Origin: a virus
Length of the DNA: 64,000 nucleotides
Reading direction: 5' to 3' (one strand)
Virus record (IMG/VR): IMGVR_UViG_3300042863_001519
Coordinates: 30,805 to 94,804 of that record
Notes under the pieces: generated by a model
Seen by the model: only the letters and a program-made list of their open reading frames with translations
Database searches by the model: none
Told to the model about the DNA's origin: nothing
Program-made: the position numbers and the translations under genes
In this document: positions 6,781-23,616 of the stretch, piece by piece
How the letters are laid out: every line of letters begins with the position of its first letter
How positions within the stretch are numbered: position 1 is the first letter of the stretch

Positions 6781-7890
6781 TTAATCAAGAAAATATGCAC
6801 CTGATGTTACTTGCTGGTATATCTCTTCCTTGATATCTTTCTTTCGAGGAAGGGTGCGAAAAATCCCATATTCCGGTTGTAGTGCCATAGGAAACTGTAC
6901 ACCATTTGTACCAAAGGAGTTTTTGAGAATGTGTAATGATCTGTAATAGGTTTTGAAAAATTCATCTCTAAAACCTTTCAGTACATAACCATTCTCTTTG
7001 TGTCCATCTAAGTCACCTACAATATGTCTGTATGGTTCGAACAATGCAAGAACAACATCAGCATCGTGTTGTGTTTGAGATGAATCAGCAAAGTCACTGA
7101 GCTTTGGTGCTAAATCACCGAGTTTCAATCTTGATACATCGGCCAGGTTACGATTCAACTGTTGGATTACAACTGGTGAGAAACCATAGATGTCCCTTGC
7201 CTGTCTCATTACAGTACTGAACTTATCAATCTGTCCTTTAGACTTCTCAAGATCCTTCTCTGGTTTTAAAATACCAATGTGGTCAACAATAACCAGTACG
7301 ATGTGATTAGGATGATTAGGAACATATGTACGATCAGCAAGGATATTTTCCATGCTTTTGTTACTCTTATCCTTGTCGATAATGGTACCGTGTTTCCTTG
7401 CAAATGCCTCTAGGTAAGCACTGATACCGGAAGGGTTCTTACTGCCCTCAAATGCTATCAGCAAGTCATCTGTTTCCCATTCATCTAGTATAGAATAATT
7501 CATCTGTACCAAAGCATACTCCTGGTCATCCATCTTAAAGTTCTTCTGCCGACTCAATAGTTTTTTAGGTGGTATAGGAATACCCTGTTCTGTGAATATC
7601 TTTCTAGCCAACCATCGTGCACTGTACTGGTACATCTTACGTTCCATACCAAACAGAATGATACTCAACTTGATATCAGGACTTTTGTTGTTCAGATACC
7701 ACTCTATAGGTCGTATCATGAACATATCTTGTGCCAAAGTGCTCTTGCCTGAGTTATGTACCAGTATTGGATCTTTTTGTGTTGCCAGATAGAAGTTGTT
7801 ATTATCTTCTACCGATATGTCATATGTTGTTTCGTAAGGAATCTCCTCAAATGAAACAATATCCTGAAGATTTATAACAGATGCTTCCAT
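6781..7890 (-). CDS. DnaB-like helicase, C-terminal fragment, preceded by a 46-aa split-intein C-half (7753..7890)
   Basis: TYDISVEDNNNFY (block F) ...ILVHN|S (block G), then SGKST, VIVDHIG, IQQLNR, DADVV and KN helicase motifs. Confidence 0.92.
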   Translation of the reverse strand: MEASVINLQDIVSFEEIPYETTYDISVEDNNNFYLATQKDPILVHNSGKSTLAQDMFMIRPIEWYLNNKSPDIKLSIILFGMERKMYQYSARWLARKIFTEQGIPIPPKKLLSRQKNFKMDDQEYALVQMNYSILDEWETDDLLIAFEGSKNPSGISAYLEAFARKHGTIIDKDKSNKSMENILADRTYVPNHPNHIVLVIVDHIGILKPEKDLEKSKGQIDKFSTVMRQARDIYGFSPVVIQQLNRNLADVSRLKLGDLAPKLSDFADSSQTQHDADVVLALFEPYRHIVGDLDGHKENGYVLKGFRDEFFKTYYRSLHILKNSFGTNGVQFPMALQPEYGIFRTLPRKKDIKEEIYQQVTSGAYFLD

Positions 7891-12461: not shown

Positions 12462-12766
12462 GCTTTTTTATTTAAGATACTATCAATGAGGTTATGTGAG
12501 TGAATGGCTATGGTGCCATAGTTGTAACCTACGGTTGCTCTTGGGTTTCTTACTTTCTTTCTAAGCTGCTCCCTTGCTTCTATCACAGCACTCTGCAGTT
12601 CTTGCTTCCTACGTTCAGATGCTTGCCACTTCTGCTCTCTTGTGGCACGTACATAAGTACGGCTTATAAACTCCTTAGAAGGGGCTGGTTTTGGCTCAGG
12701 GCAATATGCTGTTCCCATAATAGCTGATCCTGCAAATAAGAGGATACGTTTCGTGTTATTTTGCAT
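12458..12766 (-). CDS. hypothetical protein
   Basis: 102-aa ORF. Confidence 0.6.
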   Translation of the reverse strand: MQNNTKRILLFAGSAIMGTAYCPEPKPAPSKEFISRTYVRATREQKWQASERRKQELQSAVIEAREQLRKKVRNPRATVGYNYGTIAIHSHNLIDSILNKKA

Positions 12767-12793
12767 GTTATTGGTTTTTGATTGTGAAAAATG

Positions 12794-13339
12794 TTATAAT
12801 CCTTTTTTAATCTTCTCTATACAACCAGCATAACCAGCAAGGTCAACTAGAGAGTCTTGTTTCTCACAGTTGTCTTTATTGGCTCTACAGATCTTCAACC
12901 AGGCCATCATCAAACCTACTTGCTCAGGGGTAATAGTTGCTTTTGTAATTACTTCCCATCCTTTAGCAATATCTTTGAAGTTGTCAGATGTCTTACCATA
13001 GTCTTTTTCTCGGTCTCCGTATATAAGACCTTTAGCTGTATCTAGAATAGTATGACCAGGTGCTGATTGAATGTCGGGTTGTTGCTCGGTATGGTTTTGT
13101 GTAGGCTTACTCTCCAAACTTGCAATGAAATCGGAGTAGGTAATTTCGGGTAGTTTAGCATTGTCGTTGTAATTGTAATATATCCCTTCATGGCTAGATG
13201 GGTCTATTCTAAAAAATAGAAATTCATCATCAAAATGTATTGCAGATTTCAACCCATACCCCCTTGCCAATTCCGCTAAGTGGTTCAATTCTTGCTCCGT
13301 TGCGAACTTAATCGCTTTGCCTTCAAATGGGTTTGTCAT
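12794..13339 (-). CDS. DUF6378-like domain fused to an N-terminal domain shared with 26305..26748
   Basis: GDREKDYG...NF..IA..W...VGLMMAWLKICR...DSLVDLAGYA. Confidence 0.75.
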   Translation of the reverse strand: MTNPFEGKAIKFATEQELNHLAELARGYGLKSAIHFDDEFLFFRIDPSSHEGIYYNYNDNAKLPEITYSDFIASLESKPTQNHTEQQPDIQSAPGHTILDTAKGLIYGDREKDYGKTSDNFKDIAKGWEVITKATITPEQVGLMMAWLKICRANKDNCEKQDSLVDLAGYAGCIEKIKKGL

Positions 13340-15568: not shown

Positions 15569-15820
15569 TTAGTTTATCCTTATGAGATGATCAACATCTG
15601 ATGCTTTAAAAAACCATCCACCAATCTTAAAACTAACCTGATAGATGACATTTGGTTGTTTGCTGGTATCTACTGCATAGTACCTGTGTTCTGACATTAC
15701 AAAAGTGCAATGAGGACACGCTTTACGTATCCCCATTGCTCTCTCATTATAATCAGCTTGCATACTTCTACAACTACTAATGCTCAATGCTAGTAGAGCT
15801 ACTATGATTAACTTTTTCAT
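15569..15820 (-). CDS. small lipoprotein
   Basis: MKKLIIVALLALSISSC lipobox; CPHC motif. Confidence 0.7.
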   Translation of the reverse strand: MKKLIIVALLALSISSCRSMQADYNERAMGIRKACPHCTFVMSEHRYYAVDTSKQPNVIYQVSFKIGGWFFKASDVDHLIRIN

Positions 15821-16623
15821 TACTTTCTGTATAATAAAGATGTTACGTCAATAATTGAACCTTTCCTAGCCTTGTAGTTGTATATCTCACCCAATAGTTC
15901 TATGTAGTGAGTGGCATTGGTACAATCTACCATCTTCTTTTGCTGATATCGTAACTTTTCTATAAAGGTGCTAAAGTTGAAACCAGGTATTGTTGAGATC
16001 TTTACAAAAGCAACAGCAAAGCTTCTCTTTTTATAACCGGCATACAACTCTTTTATAGTTAAAAGCATCTCAGCTACCTCTTCAGCTTTCTTCAGATTCT
16101 TTACCTTAAAGCCACCTATCTTAAAATCATTAAGCATCTGGTTGTAAAAGGTTTCTGTATCACTAAGCAGCATAATATTGATTGCATGACCAAGTTTGTA
16201 CTTCTTTTCAAACTCTTCATACATTTCATAGTCTTTGTTGCCAGTGGTACTGAAGCTATTTACAAACTCAGCAGTACTCCAACGAGAATCATGGTCATTA
16301 ATAGCCCTGACTGTCTCAATGCTGGCACCTTTTACTACATAGTAGTAGAATGGTCTATCTAACCTTTTAGAAGCCTCCAAGCGATGTTGTCCATCAATGA
16401 TCTCAAACTTCTCATTGCATTGTGCAGGTGCAACTGTTTCTGGAAAGTTTTTCATCTTATCCATTACTGAGAGTACACGTCTTTCATCAATAATTCTGTT
16501 ACCACCAATGTATTTAAACATTGCATAGTTTTTAGTTGATGATATTTGATATTGTTTCTGTAGCATGTTATTGCTTTTTAGATGTGAATAAAAATTAAAG
16601 AAATACTCCGTGTTGTTCTTCAA
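15820..16623 (-). CDS. ParB/Srx N-terminal-domain protein
   Basis: GNR...IIDGQHRLEA motif. Confidence 0.75.
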   Translation of the reverse strand: MKNNTEYFFNFYSHLKSNNMLQKQYQISSTKNYAMFKYIGGNRIIDERRVLSVMDKMKNFPETVAPAQCNEKFEIIDGQHRLEASKRLDRPFYYYVVKGASIETVRAINDHDSRWSTAEFVNSFSTTGNKDYEMYEEFEKKYKLGHAINIMLLSDTETFYNQMLNDFKIGGFKVKNLKKAEEVAEMLLTIKELYAGYKKRSFAVAFVKISTIPGFNFSTFIEKLRYQQKKMVDCTNATHYIELLGEIYNYKARKGSIIDVTSLLYRK

Positions 16624-18769
16624 GAGAAGCTAACCATTTGTTAAACAGATGGTCTTGAAATGCTCTTGAGCAATCTTCATGTTTTGTAAGCAGGTGCTCA
16701 TTTTCTTCTATCAAAGTAACAGCAATCTCTCTAATACCTTTTTCAAACTGCTTTGAGGAGATATAGATAGTATTGTTTTTTGCAAGACCTAGTACAGATA
16801 CCTGGCTGAATGTTACTACTTCGATAGGATAACTTATCTCATACTTCATATCAGTGAGTGCTTCAACAGCTTTCTTCAGTTGATAATCCATTTTTGGAGT
16901 AGTCTTTACAGGAATGGTAAAAATATCATTATCTTTATCAACACCACATACTTCCACTTCTGGGAAATCTTCTTTGATCTTTCTTGCCAATGATTTTGAA
17001 ACAATCAGATGCGGTTCTGTTAACCTGTCTACATAAAAACCACTAAGATCCTGATTGATAACTATCCTGTTACCAATTGCATCTCTCCATGCAGAGTTCA
17101 ATTTACGATATGAATCATGAAACTCAAGAGTTGTCTCGATAAACATTGCATCTTTAAAGGCACACTGCATAATAGTTGATGCAACATCTTTAGTTGCATG
17201 TTCCATCAGAAAGTCTCTAATTATTCTTCTTGCACCATACATATTATCTATTACTCTACTCTCGTTAATAGTAAAGTCAGGAAGATCGTAATGATACAAT
17301 GCTTCGCCTGCATCATAACATCTGATACCTCTACGATACAATATTCTCTGGTGCTTCTTACAGATATTCGGAAATACTTTCCCTACAGGTAGATCAATTA
17401 TTGCATCTGTTCTATCAAATGAGAAGTAGGTATCCCAGTTGTTGATTACTTCTTTTATCTGAGCTACATGCTCGATATAGAAACGTGTGTAACCTTCTTT
17501 ACCGGTTACTATTTCTGTACTGGGTATTACGTTATTCTCACCCTCGTCAATAGCATTAGATACAAACTCACGCACTGCCATCCAAGTATCCCACTGTGGT
17601 CCCATATCAGTAGTAAGAGATGTTTCCCTACCATCTATCAATATCTTCTCAAAGCTCTTATCTCTAAAAGCTACAGGTTCTGTTGATAGTACTAACTCCT
17701 TCTCACCAGAGAAGATACGTAATCCTATCTTAGCTTTGAGTAAAAGAGCTATTGCATACTTGTTACCTGAGCCATCAGGTATGTTAACTTATAGTTTCCT
17801 ATAAGATCGGACTATATCATCACCCTTCTCATTAAGAGTTAGGGGCCGGGCACTTATACTGGTAATTAAGAACACTATAGTTCTCCAGTAGTCTCTGAAC
17901 CTTTATAGAGTGTACTCTATACTTGGATGCTGATTGGCATATCATTTCTGACTTAGCTTTCCAGCAGTTCACCTCGGTTTTTATTTTCATCCATCTCTGG
18001 AAGGGGTTTCATGGCTCTTTTGTAATTTCTAAGTTCTAAAATAGACATAGGTTTGAGATACTCTTTTTCAAAGTTGCAACTAGCAAAATCTTTAAAATAA
18101 TATCTGTTTGCAGAATCATAAAATATAGCAGCATAAAAAGAATCTTTAAATCTTCCAATTTTTGTTGGACCAGCTCCTTTTTTTATAGTAATTGAAGAGG
18201 AATAATAATGATAAATTTTTCTACCGTTATTATCAGATGTAAGTTGTACACCTCTATATCCGGTTTTATTATCTACCCTTAATAACTTCTTTTTACTATT
18301 GTTTTCATTAGTACATACTCTAAGATTAACAATTCTATTGTCATCTTTTATGTTGTTAATATGATCAATTTGCATATTATCAGGAATTAATGTACCTGTA
18401 TGCAAAAACCAACATAATCTGTGGTATGTGCTTCTATATTCTATATTATCTACTGTAATGTAGATACATTCTCTATAACCTTTTATTGTCTTTCTTGTGT
18501 AAAGTCTATTTTTACGAATGTTGTTTATCTCACCAGTATTGAGATCATAACTAAACATACGCTTGAACACATCTTTTACTCTTTCAGAACTTGCTTCATT
18601 AAATGTTTTTCGGACTCTTTTCATGAAGCAAATATACAAAATTTTATTCTTAAAACCCAATCATTGTAGTACTATCTCTCTTGGTAGAACCACCCATCAG
18701 TGTGAGTGCATTTACATCAATTTGTCCTTTGTTCTCGATAAGGAGAAACTGCTTGTTTGTGTTTTCCAT
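16595..18769 (-). CDS. GHKL/HATPase-fold protein, 432 aa after splicing (exon 1 18769..18652, exon 2 17775..16595)
   Basis: Spliced junction restores MGGSTKRDSTTMIGF-Y-GSGNKYAIALLL; also REFVSNAIDE; C-terminal EENEH. Confidence 0.85.
17776..18651 (-). mobile_element. group I self-splicing intron with endonuclease in loop L1
   Basis: P AACUGCUGGAAA, Q AAUCAGCAUC, R UUCAGAGACUA, S GAUAUAGUCC; IGS 18004..18017 pairs with both exons; terminal G at 17776. Confidence 0.93.
17953..18624 (-). CDS. HNH-AP2 homing endonuclease (intron encoded)
   Basis: HRLCW...IDHINNIKDDNRIVNLR (HNH); NKTGYRGV...IGRF...AA..YD (AP2); TATATTTG 4 nt before ATG 18624. Confidence 0.9.
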   Translation of the reverse strand: MKRVRKTFNEASSERVKDVFKRMFSYDLNTGEINNIRKNRLYTRKTIKGYRECIYITVDNIEYRSTYHRLCWFLHTGTLIPDNMQIDHINNIKDDNRIVNLRVCTNENNSKKKLLRVDNKTGYRGVQLTSDNNGRKIYHYYSSSITIKKGAGPTKIGRFKDSFYAAIFYDSANRYYFKDFASCNFEKEYLKPMSILELRNYKRAMKPLPEMDENKNRGELLES

Positions 18770-18904
18770 TTTTTTTGTGTGTTTAAAAGTTAAAAATGAT
18801 TAATTTACCCAACTCCATGTTGGTACATCCATTTGAATTGCAAGTAACTCTACGTATTCTTTCATGTTTTTGTATTTACCTGTTAAAAAATTAATTATTT
18901 GTGC

Positions 18905-19225
18905 TTATTTAGCACATTTTTCAAAGTGGAAAATTACCTCATTACTTACATCTGCTACCATACCGTAATCCTTACATAAACTGTATTTACTGTTAAGATA
19001 TTGTAGCTGTTTATGTACCACTGCTATGTGTAGCCTAAACTGCTCAATACTCTTACTCCCCTTACGCCTCTTACACCTCATGCAGCTAGGGTATAACTGG
19101 TTATTAGTGCTGTCTAGTTTTAATGTGCTAATGGTTAACGCATTACCGCAGTACGCACATTTACAGCCATACTTATTTAGCACTTGTAGCCGTTCCGATT
19201 GTGGTATTCTGATTTGTGTTGTCAT
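18905..19225 (-). CDS. degenerate HNH-like Zn-finger protein
   Basis: KYGCKCAYCG...PSCMRC; catalytic DH and N absent. Confidence 0.65.
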   Translation of the reverse strand: MTTQIRIPQSERLQVLNKYGCKCAYCGNALTISTLKLDSTNNQLYPSCMRCKRRKGSKSIEQFRLHIAVVHKQLQYLNSKYSLCKDYGMVADVSNEVIFHFEKCAK

Positions 19226-20424
19226 ATGCCGTTTATATTGTCCAAAATACTACCTATATAATGAGACCACAGCCCTTCTTTTTCTAGATACTTCTGCATA
19301 TTATCTATTACACTTTTCATTTCAGGAGCTGCTGCACAGAGTTTGGCGTTTTCTTCTGCTTCATCCTCTCCTACATCTGTTGGAGATAATATATTGTCAC
19401 CACTTCGGTCTAATATTTTCCAATTTTTCTCGTTTAAGTGCTCTAATACTGTTCTTACAGCATACCATTTCTTACTCTGTTCCATTTTCTATTATACGGT
19501 TTTCGTTAACCTCTGTTATGCTCTGATTGTCTTCAGAGAATGTAAACATGCTTCTTATTACATCCCACCCTTTACCTGTCCATAGAGCTACTTCTCTTTT
19601 TTTAGGATGTCCCACTGCATCTACTGTTACCCAGTAATAGCCTTTCTTTCTTCTTTTCATTTTCTACAGTTTTTCTAGATGATTAATACTCACACAGCCT
19701 GATATACCTTCTACATTACACACTGGGTGTCCTGCTCCTACATGCCATACAGCTGATGTTATAGTTGTGTCTGTTGGGTTGTATCGTTCTCCTGTTGATG
19801 TTATTACAGACCAGTATCTTACTGGTGTACCTGGTATTATTTCTTGTTCTTTCATTTGGTTTTATTAATTGTGAAAATCATCTTCTACTTCCCAGTATCC
19901 TTGTTTAGTTACAGAAGAAGTTTCTTCTTGTTTTTCCTCATCTTGTATGAGTTTGTTAAAAGCTTTTTTCAATATGTCATGATCAACTTTTAGTTTAAAA
20001 AGTCTTTCTTCACATTCTACTTTGGCTGAATATCTACCAATAAGGTATGCACCTAGTGTAAAGATGCATATAAGAAACAGTTGCATTTTGTATAAATTTT
20101 GAGGTTAACGTATGTACAAACTTAAAATAAAAAAGCCAGGAGTAGAAACTCCTAGCCATTTTTCACACACACAAATTATCATCTTGGGTTCTCATCTAAA
20201 TCTATTGCAGCATCTTCTTCTTTACCAAAGTAAGCTTCACTTTCTTCTCTAGTAATACCATTGATCAAAAACTCTCGATCATCTGCACAAAGATGAGGTA
20301 CAATCTTTTGTATAGGTGTACCTGTTTCTCTTCTGTTTTGTACCTGAGCAAACTGCTCTTCTGTAATATCTATCTCCTGGGTATATCTCTTGCCGGAGAG
20401 GATTGATCTTTTAGTTATCTGCAT
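19222..20424 (-). CDS. run of five small hypothetical genes (19222..19485, 19472..19660, 19664..19855, 19865..20086, 20179..20424)
   Basis: Contiguous short ORFs with A-rich leaders; hairpin at ~20130-20156. Confidence 0.6.
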
Positions 20425-23245: not shown

Positions 23246-23249
23246 GTAG

Positions 23250-23616
23250 TGGACCCGGAGGCATCCGAGAGCCTCGTCCAAACAGTGTTCCTCTCAAAAA
23301 AGTTACGACTATGACTTGTTTTTACTCTGCTGTCTTCAGAGATGCTTGAAAGTTCTGCATAATCTACATCTACTTACAACGTCAATAGTTTTTATTTTAA
23401 ACAGTCAGATTTCTCTTCTTATCTGTGGTGAATTAGGCTGCTTCTGCTACTAGAGCATTTGCAAAGCACATATTAATAATACGTGCACCTTCTTCCTGAC
23501 GAGCAACTTTTTCGTTGTTTGCATCTATTGTTTGAATCTATTTATTTAAAGGACTACATCCTTGTCCTTAGTCGCCTTTTCTACTATACTAGCTGCTGTC
23601 AAAACCAATCGGGCCC
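23250..23616 (-). ncRNA. ssrA: tmRNA; tag (A)ANNEKVARQEEGARIINMCFANALVAEAA* at 23522..23433
   Basis: 5' GGGCCCGATTGGTTTTGACAG; acceptor GGGCCCG/CGGGTCC with G3:U70 and discriminator A; resume context AATAGAT-GCA; tag ends in AA. Confidence 0.92.

What the first reader, a model, noticed from the sequence alone, without database searches (positions are those of the whole stretch)
17776..18651. Group I intron with exact splice sites in an unusual host gene, endonuclease in loop L1
Exon 1 (not in the ORF track) ends ATT GGG TTT T and exon 2 starts AT GGC TCA GGT, giving IGF-Y-GSG. The internal guide 5'-GAGCCAU-GAAACCC-3' (18017..18004) pairs with the exon 1 end GGGUUUU, including the U.G pair at the splice site (P1), and with the exon 2 start AUGGCUC (P10). 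About 630 nt of HNH-AP2 ORF separate the two P1 strands, and the ORF's last codons run through the guide and into the P element. Translation of the endonuclease and ribozyme folding would therefore compete. Phage introns are mostly known from nucleotide-metabolism, replication and packaging genes.
Basis: partly seen in the sequence, partly recalled or inferred. Interest (0 to 1): 0.7.

Follow-up and report, generated by a model that had tools for sequence, protein, structure and literature searches.

The report
Mobile group I intron in phage ATPase gene
A genuine self-splicing-type (group I) intron carrying its own DNA-cutting homing enzyme splits a conserved ATP-binding motif of a phage gene of unknown role; it is a well-formed new example of a known kind of selfish element, unusual mainly in where the enzyme gene sits.

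Summary
On the minus strand an 876-nt group I intron (18651..17776) splits a 432-codon gene at codon 40. Rfam scores the core at 70.9 bits (cut-off 50). The guide at 18017..18004 pairs with both exon ends, including U.G at the 5' site, and the intron ends in G. Intronless homologues read ...MIGF-Y/F-GSGNKY..., exactly the predicted junction. Six related introns support P3-P7.1 by compensatory changes and have short P1 loops, so the 641-nt L1 with the HNH gene is an insertion. The enzyme has an HNH plus AP2-like fold (best fold match I-HmuI). Its last 23 codons cover the guide, P2, P3 and P4 and stop in P5. Three relatives also read through the guide and P2. A second phage (L211) carries the same intron at 97-99% identity while its exons are 81-89% identical. 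A 97%-identical host protein has no intron. So the element is, or recently was, mobile. The host protein is an Hsp90/sacsin-like ATPase of unknown role. Splicing is not shown; no RNA runs were listed. Competition between translation and folding is inferred and is a known theme. Verdict: real, well documented, a new member of a known kind. The same scan noted this stretch before (e1-6052369).

The parts
18652..18769 (-). Exon 1 of the host gene (39 codons plus 1 nt; MENTNKQFLL...TTMIGF)
   Evidence: Translation. Matches phrog_8203 profile positions 3-33. Identical to the N-terminus of the intronless homologue P0004.
18652..18658 (-). P1 5' strand GGGUUUU; the 5' splice site follows U18652
   Evidence: Pairs with GAAACCC at 18010..18004, with U.G at the splice site. 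Related introns have P1 at the same place, just 5' of P2.
18650..18652 (-). UAA stop in the exon-1 frame, straddling the 5' splice site (U|AA)
   Evidence: Read directly from the sequence. Unspliced RNA would give a 39-aa peptide. Pf-WMP3 has a similar feature: its intron begins with UAA (PMC3428280).
17776..18651 (-). Group I intron, 876 nt
   Evidence: Rfam RF00028 at 70.9 bits. Boundaries fixed by intronless homologues. Same intron at the same site in L211.
17953..18624 (-). Homing endonuclease ORF in L1 (223 aa, P0003), HNH plus AP2-like; the stop UAA lies in the P5 internal loop
   Evidence: Pfam HNH_3 at 9e-15. phrog_99. hhalign probability 99.4 to P0139 across that protein's Pfam AP2 domain. 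AlphaFold pLDDT 80.5. Foldseek best match I-HmuI 1u3e, then plant AP2 domains. 10 synonymous against 7 non-synonymous differences from L211.
18011..18017 (-). Guide, P10 part: GAGCCAU pairs with the exon-2 start AUGGCUC (17775..17769)
   Evidence: 7 Watson-Crick pairs, -9.8 kcal/mol.
18004..18010 (-). Guide, P1 part: GAAACCC
   Evidence: 7 pairs with the exon-1 end, -7.3 kcal/mol.
17988..18003 (-). P2 hairpin CUUCCA-GAGA-UGGAUG
   Evidence: Predicted by the single-sequence fold. Every relative has its own hairpin here with a different sequence.
17846..17977 (-). P3 (17977..17970 with 17852..17846), enclosing P4 (17966..17961 with 17933..17928), P5/P5a (17957..17937), P6/P6a (17926..17900), the P7 5' strand (17893..17889) and the P7.1 hairpin (17888..17859)
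   Evidence: Pair counts on alignment A2: these helices are 94-100% paired, apart from the single closing pair of P5a (67%). Compensatory changes occur in P3, P4, P5, P6a and P7.1. P7 is invariant.
17823..17844 (-). P8 hairpin
   Evidence: Rfam alignment and fold. Not aligned well enough across relatives to count pairs.
17810..17814 (-). P7 3' strand UAGUC (pseudoknot with 17893..17889)
   Evidence: Invariant in all six sequences. Matches the Rfam consensus GAUAUAGUC.
17788..17805 (-). P9 hairpin CUUAUAG-GAAA-CUAUAAG
   Evidence: Rfam alignment and fold.
17776..17776 (-). Terminal G of the intron (omega G); the 3' splice site follows it
   Evidence: Read from the sequence. The junction is fixed by homologues.
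16595..17775 (-). Exon 2 of the host gene (2 nt plus 392 codons plus stop)
   Evidence: Translation P0001. Matches phrog_8203 positions 35-387. 330 homologues.

Best explanation
This is a mobile group I intron of subgroup IA type, with a P7.1 insertion hairpin, in the gene for a phage Hsp90/sacsin-like ATPase. The proposed steps are as follows.

1. The gene is transcribed with the intron. Ribosomes on exon 1 stop at a UAA that straddles the 5' splice site.
2. The exon-1 end GGGUUUU pairs with GAAACCC, 641 nt downstream, to form P1 with U.G at the splice site.
3. The P2-P9 core folds. A free guanosine attacks after U18652.
4. GAGCCAU pairs with the exon-2 start AUGGCUC (P10) and aligns the 3' site after G17776.
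5. The exons are joined to ...UUU-UAU-GGC..., restoring the invariant motif IGF-Y-GSGNKY.

Loop L1 holds a 223-aa HNH plus AP2-like homing endonuclease. This enzyme presumably cuts intronless copies of the gene in co-infecting phages, so that repair copies the intron in.

The last 23 codons of its ORF cover the guide, P2, P3 5' and P4 5', and stop at a conserved UAA in P5. A ribosome finishing the ORF must therefore unfold the parts needed for splicing. One RNA molecule can be spliced or be translated to the ORF's end at a given time, not both.

The sequence anatomy, the junction, the L1 insertion, the enzyme family and the mobility signature are shown. Catalysis, enzyme activity and the timing of translation are inferred.
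For: - Core: Rfam RF00028 scores 70.9 bits against a cut-off of 50.
- Structure: my P2-P9 structure on six related introns gives 88% paired cells against 34-48% when the partners are slid. 27 pairs have changes on both sides, and 0 of 500 shuffles reach that.
- Guide: it is the only 14-mer in the intron that pairs 14 of 14 with the exon ends.
- One split gene: exon 1 matches phrog_8203 positions 3-33 and exon 2 positions 35-387.
- Junction: the intronless homologue P0004 (97% identical, 432 aa) and P0005/P0006 read MIGF-F/Y-GSGNKY.
- Continuity elsewhere: L001, L002 and L004 are continuous at the DNA level. 79 of 80 IMG/VR loci and all 9 GTDB loci are unsplit at this site.
- L1 insertion: relatives L018, L020, L050 and L081 have P1 loops of roughly 6-19 nt directly 5' of P2.
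- Enzyme: HNH_3 at 9e-15, an AP2-like part by hhalign, and fold matches to I-HmuI and plant AP2 domains.
- Mobility: in L211 the intron core is 99.1% and the L1/ORF part 97.3% identical, while the exons are 81-92% identical. The closest host protein, P0004, has no intron.
- Selection on the enzyme: 10 synonymous against 7 non-synonymous differences.
- Conserved overlap: the enzyme's relatives P0125-P0127 end ...KRSKEPLPEMEEK, so they also read through the guide and P2.
Against: - There is no RNA evidence, so splicing is not shown.
- P1 must form across 641 nt with only 7 pairs (-7.3 kcal/mol). I found no extra closing helix better than chance.
- The single-sequence fold of the core is only modestly more stable than shuffles (z -1.6).
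- Pfam does not score an AP2 domain in this protein, even at E up to 10.
- The higher identity of the intron in L211 could partly reflect constraint on the ribozyme rather than recent transfer. However, the ORF's synonymous sites are also nearly unchanged.
Confidence: 0.88

Rival explanations
1. The translation-splicing conflict is avoided in time or by separate transcripts. The endonuclease would be made mainly from the excised intron RNA, where unfolding the core costs nothing. Alternatively it would be made from a transcript started at a promoter inside the intron (TATATTTG at 18636..18629, 4 nt before the ATG). Either way there is little real competition on the pre-mRNA.
For: The ORF start lies 27 nt inside the intron in an A/U-rich leader. 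T4 I-TevI is expressed late from its own promoter, and delayed translation is needed for splicing (review PMC3984707, citing Gibb and Edgell 2010).
Against: TAnnTTTG is not enriched in this A/T-rich window: 43 matches on the minus strand against 44.6 expected. The match alone is therefore weak evidence. No transcript data exist. A start inside the intron gives an RNA without the 5' splice site; it removes the conflict only if the full-length pre-mRNA is not translated at this ORF.
Confidence: 0.5
2. The intron is present but no longer self-splices efficiently. It would depend on a protein helper, or the gene would be inactivated in this phage.
For: P1 is weak and long-range. No RNA evidence was obtained. 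The fold z-score is only -1.6.
Against: All core helices are intact, and U.G, the terminal G and a 7-bp P10 are present. Both exons keep open frames with every invariant residue of the family. In L211 the core differs at 2 of 235 positions, and the exons are intact there too.
Confidence: 0.08
3. The insert is a free-standing endonuclease gene that broke the gene in two, and the resemblance to a ribozyme has no function. Alternatively, the true junction differs from the one proposed.
For: None beyond the absence of RNA data.
Against: The Rfam match has E 5.5e-16. There are compensatory changes in P3-P7.1. Removing exactly 876 nt restores the family's invariant motif and the 432-aa length of intronless homologues. 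Shifting the boundaries gives wrong residues, or places A before the 5' site and A at the intron end.
Confidence: 0.02

Closest known systems
Phage group I introns with HNH homing endonucleases: SPO1 DNA polymerase intron with I-HmuI (structure 1u3e); cyanophage Pf-WMP3 DNA polymerase IA2 intron with I-PfoP3I (PMC3428280)
   Same: A subgroup IA ribozyme with an insertion after P7. An HNH endonuclease is encoded inside it. The insertion lies in a highly conserved functional motif of a phage protein gene. A stop codon sits at the very start of the intron. I-HmuI is the best fold match of the enzyme here.
   Different: The host gene is an uncharacterised Hsp90/sacsin-like ATPase, not a polymerase. 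The ORF sits in L1, between the two P1 strands, and reads through the guide. The enzyme carries an AP2-like DNA-binding part.
T4 td intron with I-TevI (delayed translation needed for splicing; Gibb and Edgell 2010, cited in review PMC3984707)
   Same: A mobile phage IA intron in which the endonuclease ORF and ribozyme folding interfere, so expression must be controlled. The review states that some ORFs extend into core sequences.
   Different: I-TevI is a GIY-YIG enzyme. From memory, its ORF is looped out of P6a, not L1. Its regulation is shown by experiment; nothing is shown here.
Nuclear rDNA group I introns with endonuclease genes in P1 (for example Physarum Ppo.L1925 with I-PpoI; review PMC3679873)
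   Same: The review lists P1 among the peripheral segments that hold endonuclease genes, so an L1 position is a known layout.
   Different: Those are eukaryotic rDNA introns with His-Cys box enzymes. I found no phage example described with the ORF in L1. That blank covers only the library searched.
T-loop group I introns of tmRNA genes (tmRNA database 2025, PMC11915505)
   Same: Phage copies of these introns (L020, L050), and a T-loop intron in phage tRNA-Ala (L018), share 78-80% of core positions with this intron. They also have a P1 built on GGGUU.
   Different: They are ORF-less, sit in RNA genes and have short P1 loops. The core tree is unresolved. Introns in protein genes (L029, L048) are equally close.

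Membership tests
Group I intron (Rfam RF00028) | Covariance-model score above the curated gathering score | tested here: met
   70.9 bits against 50, E 5.5e-16, model positions 1-253. The same holds for the copy in L211, at 71.2 bits.
Group I intron (Rfam RF00028) | P1 formed by the 5' exon end and an internal guide, with U.G at the 5' splice site | tested here: met
   GGGUUUU (18658..18652) pairs with GAAACCC (18010..18004), and U18652 pairs with G18010. The guide lies just 5' of P2, as in relatives.
Group I intron (Rfam RF00028) | Terminal G at the 3' end, and P10 aligning the 3' exon | tested here: met
   G17776. GAGCCAU (18017..18011) pairs with AUGGCUC (17775..17769), 7 pairs.
Group I intron (Rfam RF00028) | Conserved core P3-P8 with the P3/P7 pseudoknot, supported by covariation | tested here: met
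   P3, P4, P5, P6 and P7.1 are 94-100% paired in six sequences, apart from the single closing pair of P5a (67%), and they show compensatory changes. P7 is invariant. P2, P8 and P9 are not aligned well enough to count.
Group I intron (Rfam RF00028) | Removal restores the host gene | tested here: met
   The joined exons give 432 aa with MIGF-Y-GSGNKY, as in the intronless P0005 and P0006. phrog_8203 positions 3-33 and 35-387 are matched by the two exons.
Group I intron (Rfam RF00028) | Guanosine-dependent self-splicing | not testable with these tools
   No RNA holder was listed. This needs an in vitro transcript with GTP, or RT-PCR.
HNH homing endonuclease (Pfam PF13392 HNH_3; I-HmuI-like) | HNH motif scored above the Pfam cut-off | tested here: met
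   54.5 bits against 24.8, residues 68-110. The best Foldseek match is I-HmuI 1u3e, probability 1.00, E 1.8e-3.
HNH homing endonuclease (Pfam PF13392 HNH_3; I-HmuI-like) | Site-specific cleavage of the intronless allele and homing | not testable with these tools
   Only indirect evidence. The intron is 97-99% identical in L211 while the exons are 81-92% identical. The host protein P0004, 97% identical, has no intron. The ORF is under purifying selection.
AP2 DNA-binding domain (Pfam PF00847) | Pfam model match | tested here: not met
   No AP2 hit for P0003, even at E up to 10.
AP2 DNA-binding domain (Pfam PF00847) | Three-stranded sheet plus helix fold, homologous to AP2-bearing HNH proteins | tested here: met
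   hhalign probability 99.4 to P0139 across its Pfam AP2 domain, which scores 35.6 bits against a cut-off of 33.3. The model has strands 126-132, 137-145 and 154-159 and helix 162-176. Foldseek matches TEM1, WRINKLED1, AtERF1 and AtERF96 AP2 domains at probability 0.89-1.00.
GHKL / Hsp90-like ATPase (host gene) | Pfam or NCBIfam model above cut-off | tested here: not met
   No Pfam family. The NCBIfam sacsin N-terminal ATP-binding-like domain scores 20.4 bits against a cut-off of 50, E 5e-4, residues 7-45.
GHKL / Hsp90-like ATPase (host gene) | Bergerat-fold similarity and ATP-binding motifs | tested here: inconclusive
   The 15 top Foldseek hits are all Hsp90/TRAP1, E from 3e-6, probability up to 0.99, but TM is only 0.15-0.25. 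VIA-align gives Z 4.9 over 187-193 residues. Invariant residues are E109, N113, D116 (ExxxNxxD) and G38, G41, S42, G43. The glycine motif lies before the N-box, unlike canonical GHKL proteins. Atlas neighbours carry HATPase_c_3 and MPN635_N.

The most novel reading that the evidence does not exclude
The ribozyme belongs to a lineage that switches between T-loop sites in phage tRNA-Ala and tmRNA genes (5' exon ...GGGUU) and this protein gene (5' exon ...GGGUUUU). The switch would be made by reverse splicing, guided only by the short P1 match. After the jump the intron acquired an endonuclease gene in L1 that reads through the guide. Translation of that gene would then act as a built-in switch between splicing and homing. 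The same host gene in another phage (L003) holds a different, Rfam-negative intron-like insert whose LAGLIDADG gene lies in the same position. This would suggest that L1 is a preferred entry point for endonuclease genes in this phage group.
Probability: 0.12. Interest if true: 0.6.

Novelty: new member of a known kind. Interest (0 to 1): 0.35.

Why it matters
It adds a precisely mapped mobile intron to an uncharacterised but widespread phage gene: 330 homologues, mostly in phages of Bacteroidota. Standard gene calling splits this gene into a 39-codon fragment that is missed and a truncated ORF. Because the intron sits in the invariant glycine motif, and a second insert in another phage sits in the ExxxNxxD motif, these two motifs are marked as the functionally critical and most conserved DNA of the gene. 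The L1 layout, with an ORF that must unfold the guide and P2-P5 to be finished, is conserved in at least four lineages. It therefore offers a clean natural system for testing how translation and ribozyme folding are kept apart. None of this changes current understanding of group I introns.

Tried and rejected
- **RNA evidence.** The look-up of sequencing runs (kind rna) listed no RNA holder.
- The DNA of the intronless allele P0004 could not be fetched. Nor could the Logan contigs that appear to carry the same intron. P0126 and the exon-2-only call P0014 both lie on a contig of 27,249 nt. P0127 and P0033 both lie on one of 28,546 nt. P1/P10 covariation at this site is therefore untested.
- **Extra closing helix.** A helix closing L1, between the first 52 nt of the intron and the 53 nt before the guide, gives -7.9 kcal/mol. 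Shuffles average -9.4, so it is not better than chance. Rejected.
- **Own promoter.** TAnnTTTG occurs 4 nt before the ATG, but the motif is not enriched in the window: 43 against 44.6 expected. Kept only as a lead.
- **T-loop kinship.** The idea that T-loop introns are the closest relatives was weakened. With more sequences the core tree is unresolved, and introns in protein genes (L029, L048) are as close, at about 80%.
- **Own genome.** The genome search 'own' with RF00028 gave no match, although cmscan finds the intron in the window. That look-up is uninformative.
- **Other hits.** Megablast to phage records found only short core matches, in crAss-like cr4_1 and Vibrio phage HNL01. Sequence searches of the PDB gave nothing for the host protein or the enzyme. 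A viral-contig search with the enzyme found no close relative; the best was 37%.
- **Literature.** The search found no phage intron described with the ORF in L1. This is a blank in the library searched, not proof of absence.
Full report
**What is in the sequence**

All features lie on the minus strand.
- An ATG at 18769 opens a frame that reads MENTNKQFLL...TTMIGF and reaches ATT GGG TTT T at 18652.
- The next bases, AA, complete a UAA stop in that frame, so the stop straddles the proposed 5' splice site.
- After 876 nt, ending ...ACCTG at 17776, the sequence AT GGC TCA GGT continues the frame to a stop at 16595.
- The joined exons give 432 codons.
- The 14-mer GAGCCAU-GAAACCC at 18017..18004 pairs with the exon-1 end GGGUUUU. 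This is 7 pairs, with U.G at the splice site, at -7.3 kcal/mol.
- The same 14-mer pairs with the exon-2 start AUGGCUC by 7 Watson-Crick pairs, at -9.8 kcal/mol.
- It is the only 14-mer in the intron that pairs at all 14 positions; the next best reaches 12.

The gap between the P1 strands is 641 nt.

**It is a group I intron**

Rfam RF00028 matches 18048..17788(-) over the whole model at 70.9 bits (gathering score 50, E 5.5e-16).

I then collected related cores from IMG/VR with a P7 pattern and aligned the five nearest with the window (A2). I wrote out P2-P9 by hand, with P7 as a pseudoknot with P3, and counted pairs on that alignment.
- 88% of cells are paired, against 34-48% when the 3' partners are slid.
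- 27 pairs have changes on both sides, and none of 500 shuffles reaches that.
- P3, P4, P5, P6 and the hairpin after P7 (P7.1 type, which marks subgroup IA) are 94-100% paired, apart from the single closing pair of P5a (67%), and show compensatory changes.
- P7 is invariant.
- P2, P8 and P9 are hairpins in every sequence, but MAFFT does not align them in register.

A single-sequence fold recovers P2, P3, P4, P5a, P6a, P7.1, P8 and P9. It is only modestly more stable than shuffles (z -1.6).

**The junction is right**

- phrog_8203, a family of unknown function, is matched by exon 1 at profile positions 3-33 and by exon 2 at positions 35-387. One position is left for the split codon.
- A search of 5.8 billion proteins found 330 homologues.
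- P0004 is 97% identical over exon 2, has exactly 432 residues and reads ...TTMIGF-F-GSGNKY....
- P0005 and P0006 read ...MIGF-Y-GSGNKY..., the predicted product.
- L001, L002 and L004 are continuous across the site at the DNA level.
- Of 80 IMG/VR loci with the gene, 79 are unsplit at this site, as are all 9 loci in GTDB genomes.
- Moving both boundaries by one base gives the same joined sequence. Only the stated boundaries put U before the 5' site and G at the intron's end.

**The endonuclease gene is an insertion in L1**

In the relatives L018, L020, L050 and L081, P1 is a short hairpin with a loop of roughly 6-19 nt directly 5' of P2. In the window the guide lies in the same place, but its partner is 641 nt upstream. 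The space holds an ORF running from ATG 18624 to a stop at 17955..17953.

The 223-aa product was characterised as follows.
- Pfam scores HNH_3 at 9e-15, and PHROGs scores phrog_99. Pfam does not score AP2.
- A profile of the family (A3) aligns at probability 99.4 with P0139 across that protein's AP2 domain. P0139's AP2 domain passes the Pfam cut-off.
- An AlphaFold model (pLDDT 80.5) shows three strands and a helix at residues 126-176.
- Foldseek puts I-HmuI (1u3e) first, followed by plant AP2 domains.

'HNH-AP2' therefore stands.

**The ORF overlaps the ribozyme, and this is conserved**

- The last 23 codons (...RAMKPLPEMDENKNRGELLES) cover the guide, P2, P3 5' and P4 5' (the P element).
- The ORF ends at the UAA of GCUAAGU in P5. 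This element is invariant in all six related cores.
- In the family alignment the conserved protein ends near residue 205, and the tails differ.
- In the model the tail from residue 212 has pLDDT below 50.
- Three relatives, P0125-P0127 (80%, 78% and 65% identical), end ...KRSKEPLPEMEEK. They too read through the guide and P2, but stop nine codons earlier, probably in the A-rich joint before P3.

The tail thus appears to be set by the RNA rather than by the protein. A ribosome finishing the ORF must open the elements needed for splicing. That is an inference from geometry. ORFs that extend into the core, with controlled expression, are already described (review PMC3984707). The conflict may be avoided if the enzyme is made from the excised intron or from an internal promoter. 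A TAnnTTTG match lies 4 nt before the ATG, but the motif is not enriched in the window.

**Signs of mobility**

- A metagenome contig, L211, carries the same intron at the same site. The core is 233/235 identical and the L1/ORF part 624/641. Exon 1 is 88.7% identical, and exon 2 falls from 92% near the junction to 81% further away.
- The 17 differences in the ORF are 10 synonymous and 7 non-synonymous.
- The closest host protein, P0004, has no intron.
- Two exon-2-only gene calls, P0014 and P0033, lie on contigs of the same lengths as those that hold P0126 and P0127. The host proteins there are only 63% and 49% identical.

The intron's distribution therefore does not follow the host gene. This is what homing produces.

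**The host gene**

- No Pfam family is matched.
- An AlphaFold model of P0004 with 80 homologues has pLDDT 89.
- The top Foldseek matches are all Hsp90/TRAP1/HtpG (E from 3e-6, probability up to 0.99), with low TM. VIA-align gives Z 4.9 over about 190 residues.
- NCBIfam's sacsin ATP-binding-like domain matches residues 7-45, below its cut-off.
- Atlas neighbours carry HATPase_c_3 and MPN635_N.
- The invariant residues are G38, G41, S42, G43, K45, Y46 and R108, E109, N113, D116, E117. The intron sits at codon 40, inside the first group.
- A ParB-like gene follows, overlapping by 29 nt.

I read the gene as an Hsp90/sacsin-like ATPase of unknown role. Membership of the GHKL family is not settled.

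**Relatives of the ribozyme**

- L018, L302 and L319 hold the intron in the T-loop of a phage tRNA-Ala(UGC) gene. L020 and L050 hold it in the T-loop of phage tmRNA genes.
- ARAGORN finds none of these genes in L018, L020 and L050 as they stand. It finds them, and the tRNA in L302 and L319, once the intron is removed in silico.
- Their 5' exons end GGGUU, like GGGUUUU here.
- T-loop introns of tmRNA are known (PMC11915505).
- With more sequences the core tree is unresolved, and introns in protein genes are equally close. A site switch by reverse splicing is therefore only a possibility.

**What could not be done**

**Verdict**

This is a real and precisely mapped mobile group I intron with an HNH plus AP2-like endonuclease gene in L1. 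It is a new member of a known kind. The L1 layout and the host gene are the less common features.

Noticed in passing
L003 (same contig as L128, IMGVR_UViG_3300046804_004776) 733-2033: The same host gene in another phage is split at a different site, inside the ExxxNxxD motif (..WMAVREF | VSNAIDE..), by an insert of about 1300 nt. A double-LAGLIDADG ORF (773-1774) lies right after the 5' end. It is followed by GGCUCAU, which can pair with the exon end GUGAGUU including U.G. AUACA, just before that, can pair with the exon-2 start UGUAU. Then come a GAAA-capped hairpin and a structured 262-nt tail (z -3.5) ending in G. Rfam finds no family there, even at E up to 10. It looks like a divergent group I intron, again with the ORF in L1.
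   Followed up: partly
L018 9088-9395; also L302 and L319: A group I intron (Rfam 101 bits in L018) sits in the T-loop of a phage tRNA-Ala(UGC) gene. In L018, ARAGORN sees the tRNA only after in-silico removal of the intron; L302 and L319 were run only with the intron removed, and the tRNA is found there too. The survey of tRNA introns that I read (bioRxiv 10.1101/2020.01.27.920355) tests only anticodon-loop positions for tRNAs and knows T-loop introns only from tmRNA.
   Followed up: partly
L020 7609-8193 (minus strand); L050 about 12497-13110: [quoted passage not shown] The L020 tag is 29 codons long (ANVYNSEDMM...LVAA).
   Followed up: partly
window 16595-18769 (protein P0004, model mdd8c4c89797f): In the host protein, the glycine-rich motifs that resemble the GHKL G1/G2 boxes (ENKGxID at 12-18, IGFxGSGNKY at 37-46) come before the N-box-like ExxxNxxD (109-116). 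This is the reverse of the canonical order and may be a circular permutation. The C-terminal 110 residues resemble zincin-type metallopeptidase domains (Z up to 7.2). They have invariant E396, E397, H400 and D407, but no HExxH motif.
   Followed up: partly
window 18905-19225 (minus strand): A 106-aa ORF directly upstream of the intron-bearing gene matches the HNH endonuclease family phrog_2118 (9e-14). The block 18873-19866 that contains it has no counterpart in the otherwise collinear contig L211.
   Followed up: no
window 23247-23616 (minus strand): A phage-encoded tmRNA (Rfam RF00023, 62.1 bits), uninterrupted by an intron here.
   Followed up: no
L081 3707-6668: Three group I introns (84-93 bits) lie within 3 kb of one viral contig, next to a PhotoRC-II motif (6929-7022). 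This is probably a cyanophage photosynthesis gene with multiple introns.
   Followed up: no
L005 (CrAssphage cr4_1, NC_055893.1) 2343-2632 and 868-1029: There is an unannotated group I intron (75.4 bits) in a gap between hypothetical genes of a human-gut crAss-like phage. It shares 75% of core positions with the window's intron. Its 5' flank reads GGGTTCGACT, like a T-arm, but I could not find the matching 3' exon. A RAGATH-9 RNA (134 bits) lies upstream.
   Followed up: partly
window 15820-16623 (minus strand): A ParB-like gene (phrog_12305, DGQHR motif) overlaps the end of the host gene by 29 nt. In L003 a ParB-like gene does not directly follow the host gene (the next ORF there is a small lipoprotein-like one); other loci were not checked.
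   Followed up: no
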